A stretch of DNA of 43,752 nt. Source: a virus. Lineage: Duplodnaviria > Heunggongvirae > Uroviricota > Caudoviricetes. The first letter of the stretch is position 1. Each line of letters begins with the position of its first letter. The position numbers and the translations under genes were made by a program. Below are positions 1-19,116 of the stretch, in pieces. The notes under the pieces were generated by a model. That model worked only from the letters and a program-made list of their open reading frames with translations, did not search any database and was not told the DNA's origin. The stretch is taken from the IMG/VR virus record IMGVR_UViG_2541047807_000012. One strand, given 5' to 3'.

Positions 1-90
1 TTGCCTCCCCCCCGTTGATGGGTAAAATAGCCGCAATTTTTCGTTTTCAACAAGCGCGGCGCGATGCCGCTTACTCAAGAAGAAAGAATT

Positions 91-165
91 ATGACGTTGT
101 CTCCTTATTTGCAAGAGGTGGCGAAGCGCCGCACTTTTGCCATTATTTCTCACCCCAATAATTAA
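91..165 (+). pseudogene. prfC: Truncated 5' fragment of peptide chain release factor 3 gene (first ~22 codons, then divergence and stop)
   Basis: Translation [22 protein letters not shown] matches the recalled N-terminus of RF3, then reads NN-stop instead of the P-loop DAGKTT. Consistent with an attL junction inside prfC. Confidence 0.6.
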
Positions 166-319
166 GCCCAAATTAAAGCTCTTTCAATCTTTCAAAATCC
201 TTTCAGTTAATTGAGGTTGAGCTATATAAATCATTTAAATACATTTGGTTATGTGACTTCTTTAATTGAAAATTCTTTCATGTAACTTTAAATCGATCAG
301 GTTGCTTTCATCAAAAATC

Positions 320-376
320 TGTACATATGCTTGTACATAATGTACAAAGCAGCAAAGGTGTTTTGCGATTTGTACA
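320..376. promoter_or_regulatory. Cluster of four TGTACA hexamers directly upstream of int start
   Basis: TGTACA at 320, 332, 341 and 371, all within 70 bp of the int ATG at 386. Candidate arm-type or regulator binding sites. Confidence 0.35.
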
Positions 377-385
377 AGGTGAGTA

Positions 386-1609
386 ATGGCGCTGTCTGAT
401 GCGTGGTTGCGTTCAGTCGTTGGAAAGGAACGTGATAAGGTTTTGGTTAAATCCGATCGTGATGGTCTGTCTGTCAGAGTATCACCGAAAGGTCGCGTAG
501 TGTTCCAATATCGTTATCAATGGGCGGGGAAAGGTGAGCGTCTTGATATCGGAACTTACCCGGCAACTGGATTAAAAGAGGCCAGAGAAGAAGTTATCCG
601 TCTCCGTGGTGAACTCGAGTCAAACCGTAATCCACGATTGGTCAAGCAGGCTGAAAAACGAAAAGCTACTGAAGCCATGACGGTAGAGTCTGTGATCCGT
701 GCCTGGTATGAAGCATATTGTGTAAAAAATAAAAAAGGTTCTGAACAGATACTCCGCTCGTTTGAGCTGCACCTGTTCTCTAAAATCGGGAATATCCCTC
801 ACGATGCAGCTACATTGCATGATTGGTTAGAAGTCCTGGAGCCTCTTAGCACTAAGACTCCAGCAATAGCAGACCGATTGCTAATTAACGCAAAGCAGGC
901 CCATGTCTGGGCGTATAAGAGAAAGCTCATTGAAACTCGCCCGCTGTCGGATATCACGGGTAAAGATATGGATATCCGTAAAGGTCAGAAGAAACGGTTT
1001 CTGACACATGATGAAATTAAAATCCTTTATGCTGCGATCGATGGTTCTCGAATGGTTCCTAAATACCGGGCCTTCATTAAACTATTGCTGCATTTTGGCT
1101 GCCGTAGTTCAGAGCTAATTACCGCTAGGGTGGACGATTTTGATTTCATTAATAAAGTATGGACTGTACCACCAGAACGACATAAGACTGGGGAGATAAC
1201 AGGCGAACCGCTAAAGCGGCCCATTATTGAACCGGTTGAAGAGCTTATAAAGTACGCTATTTCTATGAACAATGGTTCCGATATGCTTTTTACTAAGGAA
1301 GGAAGCAGGGAACCCGTTGGTCGGACATCATTGCAGTCGCTGCCTTACAATTTAATGCAGTACGCATGGCGGCGTTTGGGGTATCAATTCCCTCATTGGT
1401 CTCTTCATGATTTGAGGCGAACAGCACGAACAAACTTTTCTGATCTTACTGCGCCTCATATTGCAGAAATAATGCTAGGTCATAAACTGCCAGGGGTATG
1501 GCAAGTTTATGACAAGAGCGATTATCTAGAAGAACAGCGTAAAGCCTACCAGGCATGGTGGGAGAGAGTTGAATCGATCGTTACTTGTACTAATTCAGAC
1601 ACCAACTGA
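386..1609 (+). CDS. int: Phage tyrosine integrase (site-specific recombinase)
   Basis: 407 aa ORF. N-terminal arm-binding-like region and C-terminal catalytic region with the HxxR...Y-type pattern (HDLRRTARTNF...WQVY). Sits next to the att junction. Confidence 0.9.
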   Translation: MALSDAWLRSVVGKERDKVLVKSDRDGLSVRVSPKGRVVFQYRYQWAGKGERLDIGTYPATGLKEAREEVIRLRGELESNRNPRLVKQAEKRKATEAMTVESVIRAWYEAYCVKNKKGSEQILRSFELHLFSKIGNIPHDAATLHDWLEVLEPLSTKTPAIADRLLINAKQAHVWAYKRKLIETRPLSDITGKDMDIRKGQKKRFLTHDEIKILYAAIDGSRMVPKYRAFIKLLLHFGCRSSELITARVDDFDFINKVWTVPPERHKTGEITGEPLKRPIIEPVEELIKYAISMNNGSDMLFTKEGSREPVGRTSLQSLPYNLMQYAWRRLGYQFPHWSLHDLRRTARTNFSDLTAPHIAEIMLGHKLPGVWQVYDKSDYLEEQRKAYQAWWERVESIVTCTNSDTN

Positions 1610-1796
1610 TAGTTCGCTCTGAGCTAGGAACGGATATTCTTATACAAACGGTGTTGCCAGATTGCAGTAAAACTATTGATTGATAAGTGAGCAGACACAG
1701 ATAAGCAGTCAATGAAACCAAAACTTCGCCAGCGATGACATTATCTGCAAGTCCTTTACTACAAACCTCCCATTTAGCTCTAATGTAAGGAATGCT

Positions 1797-2348
1797 ATGC
1801 ACCATCCAATACCCGCACAGTTAGATACGCCTGAAACCCTGAATTTTTGTCTGCAAGTTGTTCCTGATGCTCATGCTGTATTGATTAAAAATGAACCTTT
1901 CTCGGGAGCGGAAGTTATGGACTGCTTTTCGAATGTTGAAATGGTGATTGAACAGAATGGCGGAAGAGCTGTTTACGGTTGGGCTATCTGGCAGGTACCG
2001 GGAGTTTATATTGAAGCTGAGTTCCACTGTATTTGGGAGAATGATGCTGGAGAAATGCTGGATATCACGCCATATCCTTATCGTACGGAAAATATTTTAT
2101 TTCTACCTGATAGTACGCGGATTTATAGGGGGCAGCAGGTAGACAATATCCGCCAGGCTCTTGTAAATGATCCTGATGTGATCAGATGGTTGTATCTTGC
2201 TAGAAAACGTTTTGAAATATTAAATACTGGTGACCTAGCGAACCAGCATGGGCATATTGAATTGCCACCCAAATTAGCCAAAGAGTTTAGCAAAGTTGTC
2301 GATGAGATAGAAAGGCTGTATTCCCGACTAAATCTCCGATATTCATGA
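1797..2348 (+). CDS. Hypothetical protein (int-proximal cargo)
   Basis: 183 aa ORF with an AAGGA Shine-Dalgarno 5-6 nt before the ATG. No family recognised. Confidence 0.5.
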   Translation: MHHPIPAQLDTPETLNFCLQVVPDAHAVLIKNEPFSGAEVMDCFSNVEMVIEQNGGRAVYGWAIWQVPGVYIEAEFHCIWENDAGEMLDITPYPYRTENILFLPDSTRIYRGQQVDNIRQALVNDPDVIRWLYLARKRFEILNTGDLANQHGHIELPPKLAKEFSKVVDEIERLYSRLNLRYS

Positions 2349-2452
2349 CGAGAGGGTATTGCTATACCCACTGACCATTGAAGATAACGCCTACGGCAGG
2401 CTGTTCGAGTTAGTTGTATTATGGCGGCATATGCCGCCAGTTTTAATCAGTA

Positions 2453-2656
2453 TTAGCACAGCCACGAGGTCATACCTGTAATTACGGCTTTAGTTAATGC
2501 AATTAACTCCTTGTCAGAAAGTTCTTCTAGTTCCTTTCCAGGAAATAGGCCTGGTAACATGTCATTAGCAATATGTTCCAGCTCAATATATTTTCCTAAA
2601 AGTAAGGAGTCTTTGTATAGTTCAATCAGTTCTTCTTTCATCGATAAATCCCTCAT
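2453..2656 (-). CDS. Small acidic hypothetical protein (likely starts at internal Met, ~62 aa)
   Basis: 67 aa ORF; GAGGGA Shine-Dalgarno precedes the second ATG (MKEELIELYK...). Convergent with the 183 aa ORF. Confidence 0.4.
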   Translation of the reverse strand: MRDLSMKEELIELYKDSLLLGKYIELEHIANDMLPGLFPGKELEELSDKELIALTKAVITGMTSWLC

Positions 2657-2963
2657 TCTACGCTAGAAAAAACAATCAGTTAACGTTATATAACTAGGCG
2701 ATACTCCCAGAATTCAATTCACAATAGTGCGCACTTATTGTGAAAAGTCGGTCGTGATATGTTTTGCAGATTGTCTAAAGTGACAGTATCTTGCAGCGCG
2801 TACATCAAGAATCACCGCCGGGCGCACCAGCTGACTGACCTGTTCCCCGTTGTTCAAGGATAGCGTTGCATCGACCCGTTGAACTCACAGCATAGCGCAA
2901 GCTGTCAGATTAGGTTTGGCTCTATGCCATAGATGTGTCAGCTCCCATCTGAGATAATACACG

Positions 2964-3158
2964 TTACTCAATAACTCCAGCAAACCTGTATATCTTGCGT
3001 GATGCCCATTTATTTGGGCAGGATTTAATATCAGGATCTGGAAAGTCAGGCCTGTATTTCTGGCCAGTTCTCCTGTTTACGCTGTTCCAGCGAAGAACAG
3101 TCGATACTGAAACGCCACAGAATTCGGCAACTTGTTTTGTTGTCATTAAGTTGTTCAT
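2964..3158 (-). CDS. xis: Excisionase / AlpA-TorI-like small DNA-binding protein
   Basis: 64 aa with an HTH motif (TTKQVAEFCGVSVSTVLRW). Position and size match TorI/Xis of KplE1-type prophages. Confidence 0.7.
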   Translation of the reverse strand: MNNLMTTKQVAEFCGVSVSTVLRWNSVNRRTGQKYRPDFPDPDIKSCPNKWASRKIYRFAGVIE

Positions 3159-3778
3159 TACTTCACCTCCTGCGGCGGCTCCGGTAGCGGCATCCAGTGG
3201 GTTACTTTCGATGCCGGTTCTTCCCCATTGTCAGTAACTGCCCACCATTTGTTTCTCGAACAATCGTAATACCCTTCGAAGGTATCGCACTCAGTCCAGC
3301 CGTAAGACTTACCCCAACACCAAACATACTGTTTATCGTTCGGCATTCGCTCACTACAGCTTATCCAACCATCCGGAGTTACCGGAGAGTTGCCCGACAG
3401 CTTGTTCAACTTGTAAGTCTGGCTTACAGGTTTGACACCATGAAGCATGGTGGCGCGGCAGGCGTTCCAGCCTTCATCAAAACCGACTATGCCATTATTT
3501 AAAAACGGACGAGCATCTGGCACCACCAGTACTGGCTTGGCTATATATAGCGGCTGAACATACCAGCCCTTTGATAACCAACTGTCAGCAATGTTTTTGC
3601 TCCTGGTTATTGCCGGAATACCTAAGCCATTGTCTGAATGCAGCCATGCCACCGGCTCCTCTTCCAGCGATGCCAGAGCAATTTCATAAGCACGGCGCTC
3701 AATATCGTCTCGAACCTCTAGGCTGCTGATTCGTTCTTTGATTTCTTTAATCAGTTCTTTATTGGTAAATGTGGTCAT
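3158..3778 (-). CDS. DUF551-family prophage protein
   Basis: 206 aa; Cys/Trp-rich C-terminal region ending in the WMPLPEPP-type motif typical of DUF551 early-region proteins. Confidence 0.7.
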   Translation of the reverse strand: MTTFTNKELIKEIKERISSLEVRDDIERRAYEIALASLEEEPVAWLHSDNGLGIPAITRSKNIADSWLSKGWYVQPLYIAKPVLVVPDARPFLNNGIVGFDEGWNACRATMLHGVKPVSQTYKLNKLSGNSPVTPDGWISCSERMPNDKQYVWCWGKSYGWTECDTFEGYYDCSRNKWWAVTDNGEEPASKVTHWMPLPEPPQEVK

Positions 3779-4140
3779 TATGCTCCAGCCTCCGGCGCTT
3801 TTGGCATTACTGCCCAGTGAGTGATATTGAAGTTTTCAAGGTCCCCGACCTGAAATGTCCACTGCCATTCTTCGGTTTCTTTTTGTCCCCAGGTGTACCA
3901 GAGAGAACGCCAGCCAATCAGCCAGCCTTCTCCGTTAGCATCAAATAACAGAACACTTTCATTTGCTGGTGGCAGTTCAGCTGACACTGGTATTATTTTG
4001 TTTTCCAGTGCCGCACATTTAGCTTCAAGCGCGTCGAATTTACGTACCAGGTACCCAGCATTTGTTTCGTTCACTTTCAGATCTCGCGGTACACATTTCC
4101 CGCGAAGAAACCCTTCCATTTCGAAAACATTCATGCGCAT
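3778..4140 (-). CDS. Hypothetical early protein (YfdS-like by position and size)
   Basis: 120 aa ORF, translationally coupled to neighbours in the leftward operon. Confidence 0.5.
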   Translation of the reverse strand: MRMNVFEMEGFLRGKCVPRDLKVNETNAGYLVRKFDALEAKCAALENKIIPVSAELPPANESVLLFDANGEGWLIGWRSLWYTWGQKETEEWQWTFQVGDLENFNITHWAVMPKAPEAGA

Positions 4141-4667
4141 TTGCGTAACTCCGATAACTCGTTAAAACGTTCCATAAACATCCCGTAGGCATGGCTAGGT
4201 GCCAGTGGAATCACGTTGAACATCTCTGTTGCCGGGATACCTTCCAGTACAGGCCAGAAAGAGCCATCATCAAGCCCGAGATCGCGGCGTTCGGTTGCCA
4301 GCATGATGAGATCGGCATATTTCACGGGCGTACTCATAACTGGGGGTAACCCGTATTTCTCACGGATTACGGCATCTATTTTTTCTTCCATCCGTTTATA
4401 GTCAGGAAGAAGGCGTTTCAGTGGCGCGGGAATGTCCTGACAATACGCTTCTGTTGCATCATGCATTAACGCTTCAAAAGCAAATTCCTGCGGTACCAGC
4501 TGGCTGCAAAGCACCGCATGTTGGGCGACGCTGTAGAAGTGTGAAAGATGTCCTGCAAAGCGACAGATATTTGAAAGGGAAACCGCGATATCGTTAATAA
4601 CGATGTCATCTTTATTTATCTTGTCATAATAAAAATGCTTCCCGGAAAAAGTTTTAATAAATGACAT
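4131..4667 (-). CDS. HD-domain phosphohydrolase (YfdR-like 5'-deoxynucleotidase family)
   Basis: HD-type metal-binding residues (H...HD...ALMHDATE). Start set at MSFIKTF, giving ~178 aa. Confidence 0.75.
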   Translation of the reverse strand: MSFIKTFSGKHFYYDKINKDDIVINDIAVSLSNICRFAGHLSHFYSVAQHAVLCSQLVPQEFAFEALMHDATEAYCQDIPAPLKRLLPDYKRMEEKIDAVIREKYGLPPVMSTPVKYADLIMLATERRDLGLDDGSFWPVLEGIPATEMFNVIPLAPSHAYGMFMERFNELSELRKCA

Positions 4668-4794
4668 TTTGTTCTCCACGTATATGCGCTGCACCGCGCT
4701 GAATTTGGGTAAAAGGAAGCCCTCACCATCCGGTGATTATTGAGTTAATTACGTTTCCATAAATGCCCCCGCAGGGGCATTTGCAGTAATGAAA

Positions 4795-5619
4795 TCAGGC
4801 GGTGAAAGTACCAATAAAGGTTTCTACTTTGCTGTCTCTGAATTTCTCAACAAGCAGATCACGAAATTCGTTAGCCATATCTTCCTGCACCGCTTCCAGC
4901 TGAATAATGCGCAGAACCAGTACAGGACGATCGCCAGTGATAATGCTGAGGCGTAATTTAAACGGACGTTCTTTCAGGCCTTCAAACGGAACGCATTTAA
5001 ATTCAAATGCCACTGGCATAATGTCTTTGGTTTTCGCTTCGACAGATTCCATCAGGGAGCGTTTGCCGCTGAAGTCATTATCTTCAAAATCAGCGGTCTG
5101 GTTTGCTTCAATCGTGATTTTACGGATTGCCGCAGCCGCTTTTGTTGCCTGAATGGCGTCACCATTAGCATCAAAGCCCACAAGGTAGTCGGCCCAGTCT
5201 TCAATCCATTCTGCCAGTGACTTCTGGGAGTTACGCTCGCCGTTAACAGACAACAGTGCAGAGAACGGTGCTGTCTTTTTCAGTTTGAGAGTGGCGGTGT
5301 TATCTGCGTGACCTGGTTCATTAATAGTACCCAGGTTAAGCACACTGACGGCACGCATATTATCAGCATCGATAAAGCAGCGGGTGCCTTCATCTGCAAG
5401 ATCTTTAGAATAACGGGTAAAGTCATCGATGCTGGCAGTGGAAAGCGCACCACGGAAACGGAAGCGATTTAAATTAAATTTTTCCAGATCATGAATGCGG
5501 AAATTCTCAGGCAATGCCACAGCATCGGCACCAATCTTACTGATAATTTCATTAACACCCTGAGCAGAAATAAGGGCATGGATTTGATTAATTGCGGTTG
5601 CGTCTAAGTTCTGAGACAT
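4795..5619 (-). CDS. YfdQ-family (DUF2303) prophage protein
   Basis: 274 aa, matching the size and recalled N-terminus of YfdQ-like proteins. Confidence 0.65.
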
Positions 5620-5684
5620 AATAAGTCCTCACTATATTAAGATATTCAGTGATGAGATAAATAATCAGTTAATTAAGAACGATA

Positions 5685-6047
5685 TTAATGACCTGCTGCG
5701 CGGAGTTTTCCGTCAGGCTCACCGGCAAGAGTCAGTAATTGTCCCTGGTCTTCCTGCAGAATAGTCAGGCGACCACCGCGATTGACATACATCGGCGTTT
5801 CGGTGGTGTCTTCTTCGGAAATTTTCCCGCGGTTAGTCGGGCGAACATATGAGAGTTTGTGTTTGATTTTCACACGGTTCTCATCAAATGGTTCGATTTC
5901 CAGGTTGAGTGAGACCTTACCTTTGGTTTTCGTGTTCATCACACCTGAAGCGACTTCACTGAGAACTGCGCCGATTTTGGTTTCAAATACGCCGCCGTCC
6001 AGCTCCCCGATAAATGCCTGCACATCAGTACTGCGTTCGCTAGCCAT
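5685..6047 (-). CDS. Hypothetical early-left protein (YfdP-like by position), first gene after the pL leader
   Basis: Start set at MASERS, which has a GAGGAG Shine-Dalgarno 7 nt upstream; gives 120 aa. The longer ORF-track start lacks an RBS. Confidence 0.5.
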   Translation of the reverse strand: MASERSTDVQAFIGELDGGVFETKIGAVLSEVASGVMNTKTKGKVSLNLEIEPFDENRVKIKHKLSYVRPTNRGKISEEDTTETPMYVNRGGRLTILQEDQGQLLTLAGEPDGKLRAAGH

Positions 6048-6095
6048 TTTGCTGCTCCTCATCATATCGGCCCTGCAAGGCCGATTAGTTTCTCC

Positions 6096-6184
6096 ACAAA
6101 ACAGAGAAGAACACCTGTGGTGGCAGCCGCCCGGATGGATTGGGTTATGAGCCTGTCGTCCGGTGATGCTCTTCTCTGTTTTGT
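6096..6184 (-). other. Large imperfect inverted repeat (18 bp arms, ~52 nt loop) in the pL leader
   Basis: ACAAAACAGAGAAGAaCA at 6096-6113 pairs with TGCTCTTCTCTGTTTTGT at 6167-6184 with one mismatch. Confidence 0.6.
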
Positions 6185-6230
6185 AAAAAGAGCGGTACCA
6201 GCCGGAAGCAAGGGTACAAGCTGGTACCGC
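6184..6230 (-). terminator. Candidate intrinsic terminator within the leftward leader
   Basis: Perfect 11 bp GC-rich stem (GCGGTACCAGC / GCTGGTACCGC) followed on the minus strand by UCUUUUUA. Confidence 0.5.
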
Positions 6231-6654
6231 CAAAGCAGTGGCTGTTGTGGTGGGGTTGTCACTCAGGCGTATGGTCAACCTGACAATCCGGTGTCCTCAA
6301 CGGGGAAAGAGTAACCCCGCCATACTTACCGCCGCGCCATTTCGCGGATTACCACAACGCTGAGAGCACTTAGCCAGTTACGGCACCACACTTTGTCGCG
6401 GCTCCATAAATGCCCTCATCGTTGCACCCTGGTCTCTTCCCAGGCGTCAAACCGGATCGCCACGCTGGTTAGGCGTCTTATCAGCATCATCATTGACTTG
6501 CACATTCCGGCTACCTGGTTTGTTTGCCCGAGCAAGGAGTGGATTGTCCCCTTTAACGTCCCCAGACCGCTAACGACGCATGTGCCATACGCCGTGTTAC
6601 AACCAAATTTTGTTAGTACCTTGTTTGTTGGTCTGGAAAGAAAGATAAAATGAA

Positions 6655-6693
6655 GTTGCGCATTATGCAAGTGTTTTTATTGCGAGATGTGCA
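6655..6693. promoter_or_regulatory. oL-like operator pair / pL region
   Basis: Two 15 bp sites TTGCGCATTATGCAA and TTGCGAGATGTGCAA share the pattern TTGCG-N5-(T/A)GCAA with a site in the cI-cro intergenic region. Confidence 0.55.
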
Positions 6694-6708
6694 ATTTTGT
6701 GGGTAATG

Positions 6709-6729
6709 AAAAGCCACCTTCGGGTGGCT
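6709..6729 (-). terminator. Intrinsic terminator downstream of cI
   Basis: Hairpin AGCCACC-ttcg-GGTGGCT followed by a T-run on the minus strand, just 3' of the cI stop. Confidence 0.6.
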
Positions 6730-6749
6730 AATTGATGAGGAGGTAAGGG

Positions 6750-7442
6750 TTAATTGTGTCGCTTAAGGGTTTGTGACTGGCTGATTAAGACCTTTCCAAA
6801 GACCATAAACCGGTGTTCATTTTCGCTGGTAATTCCCCATTCACGGTAAATCTGGTTATCAGAAATCACCAGTAGTTTGTCAGGTATCATTTGCAGTCGT
6901 TTGACATAAATTTTATCATCAAAACCAAATACATAGATACCATCCCCATCAAACTGATTGATACTTACATCAACGAAGATGAGATCTCCTGGCTCAATGG
7001 TTGGACACATACTGTCCCCACGAACGTTGATAACTTTAATGTGATTGGCTGGCCGTCCGCCAAACATCGATACAGCATTATCAGTTCTGTATTCAATGGC
7101 ATGAATCACATCAATGACATCACCGCCTTGGATAAGGCCATTTCCCGCACTGGCACTGACATCCAGCATTTCAATACGGAATACATCCTTCACCTGCGCA
7201 ACATCCTCACTAATACTGTTTTTATATACAGTATTACTTTTGAGGTCTGAGGTAAAGAGATCAGCAATATCAACACCTAAGCTCCTGGCAATATTACTCA
7301 GGGCTTGTTCAGTGAATTGTTTCTGCTTACCTGTTTCCAGGCGTGAGATATTCGCCGCATCCACTCCTATTGCTTCAGCGAGATCGGCGATTTTCATGTT
7401 CTTCGCCTGGCGAAGTTGTCTGACTCGATTTCCTATGTTCAT
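6750..7442 (-). CDS. cI: CI-like prophage repressor (HTH_XRE + S24 LexA-like peptidase)
   Basis: 230 aa. N-terminal HTH (QAKNMKIADLAEAIGVDAANISRLETGK) and a C-terminal S24 domain with the Ser (GDSM) and Lys (KRL) catalytic pattern. Divergent from cro. Confidence 0.9.
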   Translation of the reverse strand: MNIGNRVRQLRQAKNMKIADLAEAIGVDAANISRLETGKQKQFTEQALSNIARSLGVDIADLFTSDLKSNTVYKNSISEDVAQVKDVFRIEMLDVSASAGNGLIQGGDVIDVIHAIEYRTDNAVSMFGGRPANHIKVINVRGDSMCPTIEPGDLIFVDVSINQFDGDGIYVFGFDDKIYVKRLQMIPDKLLVISDNQIYREWGITSENEHRFMVFGKVLISQSQTLKRHN

Positions 7443-7539
7443 GCGTTTATTACATTTCTTTATTGCGCGTTAAGCAAATCAACTTGCGCAAAATATTTGC
7501 GTGAAATAATATGCTTCTCACGCAATATGTGGAGGTTAT
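7443..7539. promoter_or_regulatory. oR / pR-pRM divergent promoter-operator region
   Basis: Contains TTGCGCGTTAAGCAA (7463-7477), the palindrome CGCAAAATATTTGCG (7487-7501) and the inverted pair TTGCGTGA...TCACGCAA. Confidence 0.6.
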
Positions 7540-7800
7540 ATGCAATCACCATTACGAAATGTGCGTAAGGCGCACGGATTTACTTTGCAGCATGTTGCTG
7601 CGGGCGTTCAGGTCAATCCAGCGACGCTGAGTCGTATTGAAAGACTGGAACAAATTCCATCTATCGATCTTGCAGAACGTCTAGCCAATTTTTTTAAGGG
7701 TGAAATCAGCGAAATGCAGATTCTTTATCCGGCACGTTTTCAATCTAGCCAAAACCAGAATGGGTTTAAACCACAGGAACAGGAGGTAAGCCGTGGGTAA
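7540..7800 (+). CDS. cro: Cro-like HTH regulator
   Basis: 86 aa with an HTH (FTLQHVAAGVQVNPATLSRIE), transcribed divergently from cI. Confidence 0.8.
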   Translation: MQSPLRNVRKAHGFTLQHVAAGVQVNPATLSRIERLEQIPSIDLAERLANFFKGEISEMQILYPARFQSSQNQNGFKPQEQEVSRG

Positions 7801-8344
7801 GCATCACTGGAAAGTGGAAAAACAACCTGACTGGTACGTGAAAGCTGTCAGAAAAACTATCGCGGCATTGCCAGGTGGTTACGCTGAAGCTGCTGACTGG
7901 CTGGATGTAACAGAGAACGCTTTATTCAACCGCCTTCGTGCAGATGGCGATCAGATTTTCCCGCTGGGATGGGCAATGATTTTACAGCGCGCGGCTGGCA
8001 CTCACTACATTGCGGATGCTGTCGCACAGTCTGCTGGTGGGGTGTTTGTATCACTTCCTGAAATTGAGGAGGTAGAGAACGCTGATATCAACCAACGCCT
8101 GCTGGAAGTCATTGAACAGATCGGGAGTTACTCAAAGCAGATTCGTTCGGCAATCGAAGATGGGGTAGTGGAGCCACACGAACAAACAGCAATTAATGAT
8201 GAGTTGTATCTGTCGATTTCGAAGCTCCAGGAGCATGCGGCACTGGTCTACAAAATTTTCTGCGTTCCAGAAAAGAGTGACGCCCGCGAGTGTGCAGCTC
8301 CGGGCGTCGTGGCGTTTTGTGTCTGTGGAGAAACTAACGCATGA
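7793..8344 (+). CDS. CII-like / YdaT-like phage regulatory protein
   Basis: 183 aa; GTG start with an AGGAGG Shine-Dalgarno. Position after cro. Family assignment is from recall only. Confidence 0.45.
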   Translation: MGKHHWKVEKQPDWYVKAVRKTIAALPGGYAEAADWLDVTENALFNRLRADGDQIFPLGWAMILQRAAGTHYIADAVAQSAGGVFVSLPEIEEVENADINQRLLEVIEQIGSYSKQIRSAIEDGVVEPHEQTAINDELYLSISKLQEHAALVYKIFCVPEKSDARECAAPGVVAFCVCGETNA

Positions 8345-18913: not shown

Positions 18914-19116
18914 GGTAGAAAATATTACAAACCATATTCACTTTAGATGCCCGTGTTGCCATGGTTCTCAGTATAGAACATCATCTTTTGATGTTTCTGA
19001 CAGGAATCCTTTCGGGGCAAAATGTATCTTTTGTAAATCAATGATGATTACATTTGATAATATTTCACAATACTTAAATGTTAGCCGTCTGTCGTTAGAT
19101 TTAAGAAAGTGAAAAT

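What the first reader, a model, noticed from the sequence alone, without database searches (positions are those of the whole stretch)
1610..2963. Int-xis intergenic cargo: convergent pair of unknown ORFs plus a 25 bp palindrome
The int-proximal region is a recognised accessory hotspot in temperate phages. It holds a 183 aa ORF with a good RBS (1797..2348, +) and a small acidic ORF (2453..2656, -), neither recognisable. A near-perfect palindrome TCACAATA-GTGCGCAC-TTATTGTGA lies at 2719..2743 in the putative promoter region of the small gene, suggesting control by a dimeric regulator. Small acidic proteins at this position are sometimes anti-restriction DNA mimics.
Basis: partly seen in the sequence, partly recalled or inferred. 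Interest (0 to 1): 0.55.

Follow-up and report, generated by a model that had tools for sequence, protein, structure and literature searches.

The report
Two orphan genes in prophage defence slot
The stretch between the integrase and excisionase genes of this E. coli prophage is a swappable cargo slot that holds known anti-phage genes in related prophages; here it holds two unrelated genes of unknown function, one from a very large, enzyme-like, uncharacterised family, which makes that gene a reasonable but unproven candidate for a new phage-defence gene.

Summary
The features exist. Integrase (386-1609) and excisionase (2964-3158) flank about 1.29 kb of cargo (about 1612-2901). It is present in only 4 of 5,426 complete E. 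coli genomes, although the integrase occurs in 701.

In nine other prophages sampled, the same slot holds AbiU, Dsr1, an anti-phage dCTP deaminase, a CHAT protein and PDC-S59, so it is a defence hotspot.

The two ORFs are real genes (dN/dS about 0.04-0.22). They are not a pair: each occurs alone in unrelated mobile elements, and each has its own terminator here.

ORF183 belongs to a family of at least 3,141 clusters with no Pfam, NCBIfam or PADLOC model and no significant PDB fold match. Half of its relatives end in a SEC-C zinc knuckle. Near-invariant Cys43, His77 and Asp89, plus Glu73, Glu75 and Asp105, suggest an enzyme. The arrangement fits a papain/transglutaminase-like core, but sequence and fold tests do not confirm that.

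The small gene most likely starts at 2641 (62 aa, pI 4.5) and is restricted to Enterobacterales. The DNA-mimic idea has no support.

The palindrome (2718-2744) is unique and is the best in the window, but only marginally non-random (4 of 60 shuffles match it). It is unrelated to the cI/Cro operators and is not conserved elsewhere. All functions remain inferred.

The parts
386..1609 (+). Tyrosine integrase. It forms the left backbone border of the cargo slot. The prophage is inserted in prfC; window 64-165 is the prfC 5' remnant.
   Evidence: Pfam Phage_integrase, Arm-DNA-bind_3 and Phage_int_M. Present in 701 of 5,426 E. coli genomes. Backbone homology ends at about 1611-1612.
1612..2901 (.). 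Exchangeable cargo segment of about 1.29 kb between the int and xis backbone.
   Evidence: Backbone junctions come from blastn against prophages that share the integrase (L013-L015). The full cargo is found in only 4 of 5,426 genomes. GC is 38-43%, against 47-49% in the adjacent early-left operon.
1797..2348 (+). ORF183: a 183-aa cytoplasmic acidic protein (pI 5.0). It has an N-terminal alpha/beta domain (1-125) carrying near-invariant Cys43, Glu73, Glu75, His77, Asp89, Asp105, Asn117 and Arg119, and a C-terminal helical hairpin (126-181). It is a candidate stand-alone effector enzyme.
   Evidence: ORF and Shine-Dalgarno. 104 homologue clusters and 3,141 clusters by profile search. dN/dS 0.12-0.22. 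AF2 model pLDDT 94. Residue conservation over 237 members. The mobile module 1726-2438 is 87% identical to L026.
2422..2439 (.). GC-rich hairpin TGGCGGCATATGCCGCCA between the two convergent genes. It is followed by GTTTTAAT on the + strand and is the likely terminator of ORF183.
   Evidence: Terminator scan. RNA folds. It lies inside the ORF183 module shared with L026.
2389..2401 (-). Second, weaker terminator-like hairpin downstream of the small gene on the - strand.
   Evidence: Terminator scan. The - strand fold of 2380-2452 has z = -2.7.
2453..2641 (-). The protein has pI 4.5 and net charge -6, with an invariant KAVITGMTSW block near the C-terminus. The family is restricted to Enterobacterales. 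Function unknown.
   Evidence: Start and conservation. 28 clusters, all about 62 aa and without a Pfam domain. dN/dS 0.04-0.18. Found in unrelated contexts.
2652..2843 (.). Orphan non-coding DNA upstream of the small gene. It presumably carries that gene's promoter and contains the palindrome.
   Evidence: It matches only the four E. coli genomes with the same cargo. No Rfam hit. The only consensus-like promoter is TTAACT-17-TAGAAT at 2683-2655. SNP density is higher than in the coding parts.
2718..2744 (.). Near-perfect palindrome TTCACAATA-GTGC|GCAC-T-TATTGTGAA: 13 pairs with one bulge. It lies 77-103 nt upstream of the ATG at 2641, and its ATG-proximal arm contains a -35-like TTGTGA on the - strand.
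   Evidence: A G2729A change in its centre occurs in two of the four related genomes.
2964..3158 (-). Excisionase. It forms the right backbone border of the slot. The conserved backbone begins at about 2902, or at about 2844 in some phages.
   Evidence: phrog_1553 excisionase at 1e-35. HTH_17. Backbone homology.

Best explanation
The int-xis interval of this prfC-integrated lambdoid prophage is an exchangeable defence-gene slot. Here it holds two unrelated, separately mobile single-gene cassettes placed tail to tail.

ORF183:
- It is co-oriented with int, so it can plausibly be expressed in the lysogen.
- It most likely encodes a stand-alone cytoplasmic enzyme that protects the lysogen against other phages, by superinfection exclusion or abortive infection, through modifying or cleaving a protein target.
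- The near-invariant Cys43 (N-terminus of helix 43-54), His77 (strand 71-81) and Asp89 (strand 87-89) are proposed to form a papain/transglutaminase-type thiol catalytic centre.
- The C-terminal helical hairpin, which is followed by a SEC-C zinc knuckle in about half of the family, is proposed to bind the target or mediate oligomerisation.

The 62-aa acidic protein is an independent hitch-hiking accessory gene with its own promoter. The palindrome overlaps that promoter's -35-like hexamer. It is a local regulatory or insulating element of that cassette, not a phage operator.

Shown: slot variability, the defence content of the slot in relatives, independence of the two genes, purifying selection, family size and the conserved residues.
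Inferred: the defence function, the catalytic mechanism and the role of the palindrome.
For: Slot:
- The integrase is present in 701 genomes but this cargo in only 4.
- Of nine other prophages sampled, five carry a known or candidate defence gene in the slot: AbiU/AIPR (L014), PDC-S59 (L013), a CHAT protein (L048), Dsr1 (L049) and anti-phage dCTP deaminase (L050).

Independence of the two genes:
- ORF183 relatives occur alone in Klebsiella and Pseudomonas prophages, a Dickeya island, plasmids and IS-rich islands.
- The small gene occurs alone at a P2-like prophage end, in an ICE and in chromosomal intergenic sites.
- Module boundaries are 1726-2438 and 2443-2651, and each gene has its own terminator.

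Association with defence genes:
- ORF183 relatives sit next to Gabija GajA/GajB, DarT-NADAR and PDC-S52.
- 18 of 33 IMG/VR contigs carry the relative within 4 kb of a contig end.

Enzyme-like character:
- Conservation over 237 members (median 36% identity to the query): C43 98%, H77 99.6%, D89 93%, E73 96%, E75 97%, D105 96%.
- The AF2 model has pLDDT 94.
- The order of secondary-structure elements matches the papain-like core as defined in PMC10318531: Cys at the helix N-terminus, His on strand 2, a polar residue on strand 3.

Purifying selection.
Against: - There is no functional evidence of any kind.
- PADLOC has no model matching either protein.
- Four of the nine sampled slots hold other unknown genes, so the slot is not exclusively defensive.
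- No convincing sigma-70 promoter was found for either gene.
- The palindrome is only marginally non-random and is not conserved with the small gene.
Confidence: 0.45

Rival explanations
1. One or both genes are counter-defence factors that help the phage or mobile element establish itself. This is the first reader's idea that the small acidic protein is an anti-restriction DNA mimic. It would equally cover ORF183 as an enzyme that inactivates a host immune protein or signal.
For: Both genes travel on many kinds of mobile element: prophages, ICEs and conjugative plasmids. The small protein is acidic (pI 4.5, net -6). It lies in the same orientation as the early-left operon, downstream of xis, so it could be read through during induction. 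ORF183 relatives sit beside defence systems such as Gabija and DarTG, where anti-defence genes also occur.
Against: There is no homology to Ocr, ArdA, ArdB or any anti-defence PHROG or Pfam family. The charge is modest for a DNA mimic. The small protein's best-conserved block (KAVITGMTSW) is uncharged and largely hydrophobic, and only three acidic positions are invariant. In sister prophages the slot carries defence genes, not anti-defence genes. The small gene also sits in ordinary chromosomal intergenic sites, such as after livF and between kdgR and yobH.
Confidence: 0.15
2. The two genes and the palindrome form one functional unit, for example a toxin/antitoxin or an effector plus modulator, controlled by a dimeric regulator at the palindrome.
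For: They are adjacent in all four genomes that carry the cargo. The palindrome lies upstream of the small gene.
Against: Outside this cargo, none of the ORF183-relative contexts examined in detail carries a small-gene homologue, and none of the small-gene contexts carries an ORF183 relative. The genes are convergent and have separate terminators. The cargo contains no regulator gene. The palindrome does not travel with either gene.
Confidence: 0.05
3. The cargo genes are lysogenic-conversion or host-fitness factors unrelated to phage conflict, or selfish passengers with no benefit. ORF183 would be a housekeeping-type enzyme that happens to ride on mobile elements.
For: Four of the nine sampled slots hold unknown or non-defence genes, for example an flxA-like gene. 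ORF183 relatives are very widespread (3,141 clusters) across Proteobacteria and beyond. SEC-C motifs are known from SecA, YecA and YchJ, which are not immune proteins (my own knowledge).
Against: The location is consistently on mobile elements and variable islands rather than in conserved operons. The distribution is patchy, at 4 of 5,426 E. coli genomes. Defence genes are neighbours in three contexts examined outside E. coli.
Confidence: 0.25
4. The palindrome is not a protein operator. It is either a chance inverted repeat, or an RNA/DNA hairpin that dampens read-through from the xis operon into the small gene.
For: The whole 27 nt is self-complementary, including the centre, which is more typical of a hairpin than of a two-half-site operator. 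4 of 60 shuffles give an equally good palindrome. On the - strand it folds to -12.9 kcal/mol. Upstream of the small-gene homologues in L003 and L006 lie the terminators of the preceding genes (ogr and kdgR), so the gene is shielded from upstream transcription in those contexts as well. The only SNP in the palindrome falls in the would-be loop.
Against: There is no U-tract (the stem is followed by UUGAAUUCU). The fold z-score is only -1.6. An inverted repeat of different sequence occupies the same position in L006, and its ATG-proximal arm is the -35 hexamer TTGTCA. That fits promoter-linked regulation.
Confidence: 0.4

Closest known systems
Defence-gene hotspots of temperate phages and satellites (for example the P2/P4 hotspots, and int- or att-proximal 'moron' slots of lambdoid and P22-like prophages)
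   Same: A fixed position between conserved backbone genes (int and xis) carries cargo that differs between otherwise related prophages. Sister prophages carry AbiU, Dsr1, dCTP deaminase, a CHAT protein and PDC-S59 there. The cargo has lower GC and its own terminators. Relatives of both genes also sit at P2-like prophage cargo sites.
   Different: I found no description of this particular prfC-prophage slot in the papers searched. The two occupants have no known defence homologue and no phenotype.
Papain-like / transglutaminase-like cysteine enzymes (Pfam clan Peptidase_CA; for example Transglut_core, DUF2026/PDB 2HLY, PeiW, TglA)
SEC-C motif proteins (SecA C-terminal metal-binding domain, YecA, YchJ)
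   Same: 15 of 55 close and 76 of 146 diverse family members end in a Pfam SEC-C zinc knuckle. NCBI names those members 'SEC-C domain-containing protein'.
   Different: The window protein and its enterobacterial and Pseudomonas clade lack the motif. The remainder of the protein is unrelated to SecA, YecA or YchJ: no other Pfam hit recurs across the members scanned.
DNA-mimic anti-restriction proteins (Ocr, ArdA)
   Same: The 62-aa protein is small, acidic and carried on mobile elements.
   Different: There is no homology. Net charge is only -6. The best-conserved block is uncharged and largely hydrophobic. The gene also occurs in non-mobile chromosomal sites.

Membership tests
Prophage defence-hotspot cargo (moron) | Lies between conserved backbone genes, with content that varies among related prophages | tested here: met
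   The integrase is in 701 genomes and this cargo in 4. Nine other prophages sampled carry nine different cargos. Junctions are at about 1612 and about 2902.
Prophage defence-hotspot cargo (moron) | Alternative occupants of the same slot are known defence systems | tested here: met
   AbiU (2.6e-111) and PDC-S59 (3e-72) by PADLOC. Dsr1, anti-phage dCTP deaminase and a CHAT protein by RefSeq annotation.
Prophage defence-hotspot cargo (moron) | Autonomous expression signals and atypical composition | tested here: inconclusive
   Terminators are found for both genes and GC is 38-43% against 47-49%. No convincing sigma-70 promoter was found for either gene.
Prophage defence-hotspot cargo (moron) | Confers resistance to phage infection | not testable with these tools
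   Needs plating assays.
Papain/transglutaminase-like cysteine enzymes | Catalytic Cys at the N-terminus of the core helix, His on strand 2 and a polar residue on strand 3 of the following antiparallel sheet | tested here: met
   C43 is the first residue of helix 43-54, H77 lies in strand 71-81 and D89 in strand 87-89. They are conserved at 98%, 99.6% and 93% over 237 members. The core definition comes from PMC10318531. The strand order in the sheet (43215) was not checked.
Papain/transglutaminase-like cysteine enzymes | Significant sequence or profile similarity to a clan member | tested here: not met
   No Peptidase_CA family recurs in 55 + 146 members at E <= 10. The PDB profile search finds nothing. 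hhalign against the TG2 core gives probability 0.2%.
Papain/transglutaminase-like cysteine enzymes | Significant structural similarity of the core | tested here: inconclusive
Papain/transglutaminase-like cysteine enzymes | Cys-His-Asp side chains within catalytic distance in a pocket | not testable with these tools
SEC-C motif proteins | C-terminal CxC...C(H/C) zinc knuckle (PF02810) | tested here: not met
   Absent from the window protein. Present in 15 of 55 and 76 of 146 relatives.
DNA-mimic anti-restriction proteins (Ocr/ArdA type) | Homology to a known anti-restriction family | tested here: not met
   There are no Pfam, PHROG or NCBIfam hits for the small protein.
DNA-mimic anti-restriction proteins (Ocr/ArdA type) | Strongly acidic surface that imitates the DNA backbone | tested here: inconclusive
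   12 acidic residues of 62, net -6, pI 4.5.
Operator of the phage cI/Cro switch | Same half-site as the immunity-region operators, in several copies | tested here: not met
   The operators at 7461-7527 are TTGCGYG-type. The palindrome is single-copy, and its half-site TCACAATA occurs only once elsewhere, at 19065.
Intrinsic terminator (for the palindrome) | GC-rich stem followed by a U-tract | tested here: not met
   It is not called by the scan. The stem is AU-rich, the tail is UUGAAUUCU and the fold z-score is -1.6.
Two-gene toxin-antitoxin or effector-partner system | Conserved co-occurrence and adjacency of the two genes | tested here: not met
   There is no co-occurrence outside the four E. 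coli prophages with this cargo and their IMG/VR copies.

The most novel reading that the evidence does not exclude
ORF183 founds a large (more than 3,000 clusters), so far unnamed family of mobile-element-borne thiol enzymes with a minimal papain/transglutaminase-like core. Its ancestral form carries a SEC-C zinc knuckle. This motif is known from SecA and YecA, where it binds the ribosome or SecB (my own knowledge). The family would then be a new single-gene abortive-infection system that docks on the translation or secretion machinery and cleaves, deamidates or cross-links a host or phage protein on infection.
Probability: 0.12. Interest if true: 0.75.

Novelty: new member of a known kind. 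Interest (0 to 1): 0.45.

Why it matters
If ORF183 is protective, it would add a widespread single-gene family to the catalogue of anti-phage systems. The family spans Proteobacteria and is found on plasmids, ICEs and prophages. At present it is annotated only as 'hypothetical' or 'SEC-C domain-containing protein'. It would also give a function to a confidently predicted domain that has no significant structural match in the PDB.

The survey also identifies the int-xis interval of prfC-integrating E. coli prophages (about 13% of complete genomes) as a compact, easily mined defence hotspot. Its remaining unknown occupants, seen in L015, L045, L046 and L047, are further candidates.

If ORF183 is not protective, the locus is ordinary prophage cargo.

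Tried and rejected
1. Known-family assignment. Pfam, NCBIfam, PADLOC and PHROGs gave nothing useful for either protein. Scans of 55 and 146 family members at E <= 10 returned only SEC-C.
3. Transglutaminase homology. The family HMM and hhalign against the verified human TG2 core gave no signal. One member's Pfam hit to DUF2026 (E = 0.26) did not recur.
4. The Klebsiella 184-aa upstream neighbour as a diverged paralogue. This was rejected: the family HMM scores it at -2.9 bits.
5. The palindrome as a repeated operator, Rfam element or conserved element. There is no second copy and no Rfam hit. It is absent from the representative genomes of 185,579 species. A loose pattern gave only chance hits in AT-rich unrelated taxa. 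The surrounding 206 nt have no match in plasmids or phages.
6. Recall of E. coli transcription-factor consensus sites (CRP, LacI, LexA, Fur, 434-type and others, from my own knowledge) found no convincing match. This is memory only, not a test.
7. Literature. The protein accessions and the prfC hotspot were not found.
8. The 71-aa ORF at 1590-1805 (-) and the 31-40-aa ORFs in 2735-2900 have no homologues or family hits and are treated as spurious.
Full report
**1. What is in the sequence**

The window starts in a 5' fragment of prfC: ATG at 64, [31 protein letters not shown]. Sister genomes place the element after yjjG and before an intact prfC.

- The integrase at 386-1609 (+) has Phage_integrase, Arm-DNA-bind_3 and Phage_int_M domains.
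- The 64-aa gene at 2964-3158 (-) is an excisionase (phrog_1553, 1e-35). It heads a leftward operon containing DUF551, yfdR, yfdQ and yfdP-like genes.
- Between them lie the 183-aa ORF at 1797-2348 (+), with AAGGA 5 nt before its ATG, the small ORF at 2453-2656 (-), and the palindrome TCACAATAGTGCGCACTTATTGTGA at 2719-2743.

Three corrections follow in sections 3, 5 and 6.

**2. The interval is an exchangeable cargo slot and a defence hotspot**

The integrase region is present at 95% identity or more in about 700 of 5,426 complete E. coli genomes. The cargo occurs full-length in only four, and in no INPHARED phage record.

blastn against prophages that share the integrase places the backbone junctions at about 1612 and about 2902. 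A 48-nt piece, 2844-2891, is also shared with about 530 genomes. Cargo GC is 38-43%, against 47-49% in the neighbouring operon.

I sampled nine other prophages with this integrase. Their slot contents were:

| Locus | Slot content | Source |
|---|---|---|
| L014 | AIPR protein that is AbiU by PADLOC (2.6e-111), plus an IS | |
| L013 | PDC-S59 candidate (3e-72) | |
| L048 | CHAT-domain protein | |
| L049 | Dsr1 | |
| L050 | Anti-phage dCTP deaminase | |
| L015, L045, L046, L047 | Different unknown genes | |

Five of nine slots hold known or candidate defence genes.

**3. The two genes are real but are not a pair**

Pairwise dN/dS is 0.12-0.22 for ORF183 and 0.04-0.18 for the small gene, with differences concentrated at third codon positions.

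ORF183 relatives occur alone in many settings:
- at the end of Klebsiella prophages, after an invertase and next to int or gtrABC;
- in a Dickeya island;
- between csrA and gpD of a Pseudomonas P2-like prophage;
- in a chromosomal locus between a TetR gene and a DUF5677 gene, flanked by PA-IL lectin genes;
- next to a YagK/YfjJ gene;
- on a Mesorhizobium replicon beside DarT-NADAR;
- in an IS-rich island beside a PDC-S52 protein;
- on 53 plasmids, including Xanthomonas plasmids where it lies between kfrA and Gabija gajA/gajB.

33 IMG/VR contigs carry a relative, and 18 of these lie within 4 kb of a contig end.

The small gene also occurs alone:
- after ogr at the end of a Citrobacter P2-like prophage;
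- between kdgR and a 495-aa unknown gene in E. coli;
- inside an ICE type IV secretion cluster;
- after livF in Erwinia;
- beside an Hcp-Tlde1 islet.

Neither gene accompanies the other outside this cargo. Homology to other loci is confined to 1726-2438 (the ORF183 module, 87% identical to L026) and 2443-2651 (the small-gene module).

The genes end tail to tail. A GC hairpin at 2422-2439 and a second hairpin at 2389-2401 lie between them.

The Klebsiella 184-aa neighbour that gave a short BLASTP match is not a family member.

**4. ORF183**

There is no Pfam, NCBIfam or PADLOC hit, and only phrog_37148, which has no known function.

The family is very large. The word-indexed search found 104 clusters. 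The profile search of 50%-identity representatives found 3,141 clusters at E <= 1e-3 and 786 at E <= 1e-30, and all listed hits are 145-271 aa. The only recurrent Pfam domain is a C-terminal SEC-C zinc knuckle, present in 15 of 55 close and 76 of 146 diverse members. The 183-aa enterobacterial and Pseudomonas clade lacks it.

AlphaFold2 with a 55-sequence alignment gives a confident model: pLDDT 94, pTM 0.88. It has an alpha/beta domain (1-125; H12-21, E28-32, H43-54, E57-67, E71-81, E87-89, E99-104, E118-121) and a helical hairpin (126-181).

Conservation over 237 members, with median 36% identity to the query:

| Residue(s) | Conservation |
|---|---|
| G56, G61, F102 | 100% |
| H77 | 99.6% |
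| W62 | 99% |
| C43 | 98% |
| E75 | 97% |
| E73, D105 | 96% |
| D89 | 93% (otherwise mostly N or C) |
| R119 | 93% |
| N117 | 92% |

Such a set of conserved polar residues points to an enzyme.

Cys43 is the first residue of a helix, His77 sits on the second following strand and Asp89 on the third. This is the layout of the papain-like core as summarised in PMC10318531. The motifs FHCIWE and D-I-T-P also resemble FHCWVE and DPTP around His335 and Asp358 of human TG2. I recalled that sequence and then verified it against the PDB; the triad numbering is from my own knowledge.

However, every formal test is negative or weak:
- Foldseek against PDB and a PDB sequence-profile search find nothing.
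- hhalign against the TG2 core gives probability 0.2%.

I therefore treat 'papain/transglutaminase-like thiol enzyme' as the best mechanistic lead, at roughly 0.3, and not as a family assignment.

Taken together, the slot, the neighbours of relatives (Gabija, DarTG, PDC-S52) and the exclusively mobile-element distribution suggest a stand-alone anti-phage effector expressed in the lysogen. That is the most likely role, but it is inferred.

**5. The small gene**

Conservation, a Shine-Dalgarno sequence and the length of all homologues place the start at 2641, giving 62 aa.

The protein has pI 4.5 and net charge -6. The KAVITGMTSW block near its C-terminus is invariant. The family has 28 clusters, all from Enterobacterales where a source names the organism, and none has a Pfam domain. 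Only five IMG/VR contigs carry it.

Nothing supports a DNA-mimic role beyond the modest acidity. Its function remains unknown. A small protein-binding modulator is my guess.

**6. The palindrome**

It extends to 2718-2744, with 13 pairs and one bulged T. It is the best palindrome in the window, but 4 of 60 dinucleotide shuffles produce an equal one.

- It is single-copy.
- It lies in 190 nt of orphan DNA that matches only the four genomes with the same cargo.
- It is absent from the representative genomes of 185,579 species.
- It has no Rfam match.
- It is unrelated to the TTGCGYG-type operators between the cI-like and cro-like genes at 7461-7527.

It sits 77-103 nt before the ATG at 2641. On the - strand its ATG-proximal arm contains TTGTGA. 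That hexamer aligns with the -35 hexamer TTGTCA of a good TTGTCA-N17-CATTAT promoter upstream of the E. coli kdgR-locus homologue. There, an inverted repeat of different sequence (TCTGACAA...TTGTCAGA) occupies the same position. The Citrobacter, ICE, Erwinia and Hcp-islet homologues have no equivalent.

As RNA the - strand hairpin is weak (-12.9 kcal/mol, z = -1.6) and has no U-tract. Among the four related genomes, one SNP (G2729A) falls in its centre. The surrounding non-coding DNA varies more than the coding parts.

The palindrome may be an operator or an insulating hairpin linked to the promoter of the small gene. The data do not discriminate between these, and chance is not excluded.

**7. 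Verdict**

The finding is a correct identification of accessory cargo in what turns out to be a genuine defence hotspot.

- ORF183 is the most valuable element. It is a confident, enzyme-like member of a very large family with no functional annotation and no significant structural match in the PDB.
- The pairing of the two genes, the DNA-mimic suggestion and the cI/Cro-operator suggestion are not supported.
- The locus is a new member of a known kind (hotspot-borne candidate defence genes), with moderate interest.

Noticed in passing
window 320-377: Four TGTACA hexamers (320-325, 332-337, 341-346, 371-376) lie within 57 nt directly upstream of the integrase start codon at 386. Four of the six TTGTACA matches in the whole window are here. 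This is possibly a binding array that controls int expression, or part of the attL arm.
   Followed up: no
window 1-165: This is a 5' fragment of prfC (…[22 protein letters not shown], then divergence). In a sister lysogen an intact prfC is annotated at the far end of the prophage. Integration therefore seems to replace the 5' end of prfC with a phage-borne copy.
   Followed up: partly
window 2844-2891: A 48-nt non-coding segment downstream of xis is 88-94% identical in about 530 E. coli genomes, including six plasmid records. No feature is annotated there. It could be a conserved terminator or small RNA of the early-left operon.
   Followed up: no
window 7461-7527: The immunity region lies between the cI-like gene (6750-7442, -) and the cro-like gene (7540-7800, +). 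It carries inverted repeats with the half-site TTGCGYG, for example TTGCGTGA-N13-TCACGCAA.
   Followed up: partly
window 13545-43752 compared with L034: The window and the closest same-cargo lysogen (TUM12357) are collinear only for window 40-13544, with a short break at 8969-9541. The late region differs, so the cargo sits on mosaic phages.
   Followed up: no
L015 6081-7629; L045 5595-6836; L046 5511-6487; L047 5671-6481: These are other occupants of the same int-proximal slot. They are annotated as hypothetical, apart from an FlxA-like gene in L047. The two L015 proteins gave no PADLOC or Pfam hit; the others were not scanned. They are further candidate defence genes.
   Followed up: partly
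L006 5700-7187 (also L007-L009): In E. coli chromosomes the small-gene homologue sits between kdgR and a 459-495-aa protein that has no Pfam or PADLOC hit. This appears to be a small variable islet next to yobH and mgrB.
   Followed up: no
L016-L020 4817-6552: Klebsiella prophages carry a fixed trio of a Hin-type invertase, a 184-aa unknown gene and the ORF183 homologue. The trio sits beside variable tail-fibre or depolymerase genes at the prophage end. The 184-aa protein is not a paralogue of ORF183.
   Followed up: partly
L059 1968-2077: A Bacteroidetes MAG has three tandem copies, 41 nt apart, of a TTCACAATA...TATTGTGAA palindrome. It was found by the loose pattern scan. It is unrelated in taxon and is probably a local repeat array.
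   Followed up: no
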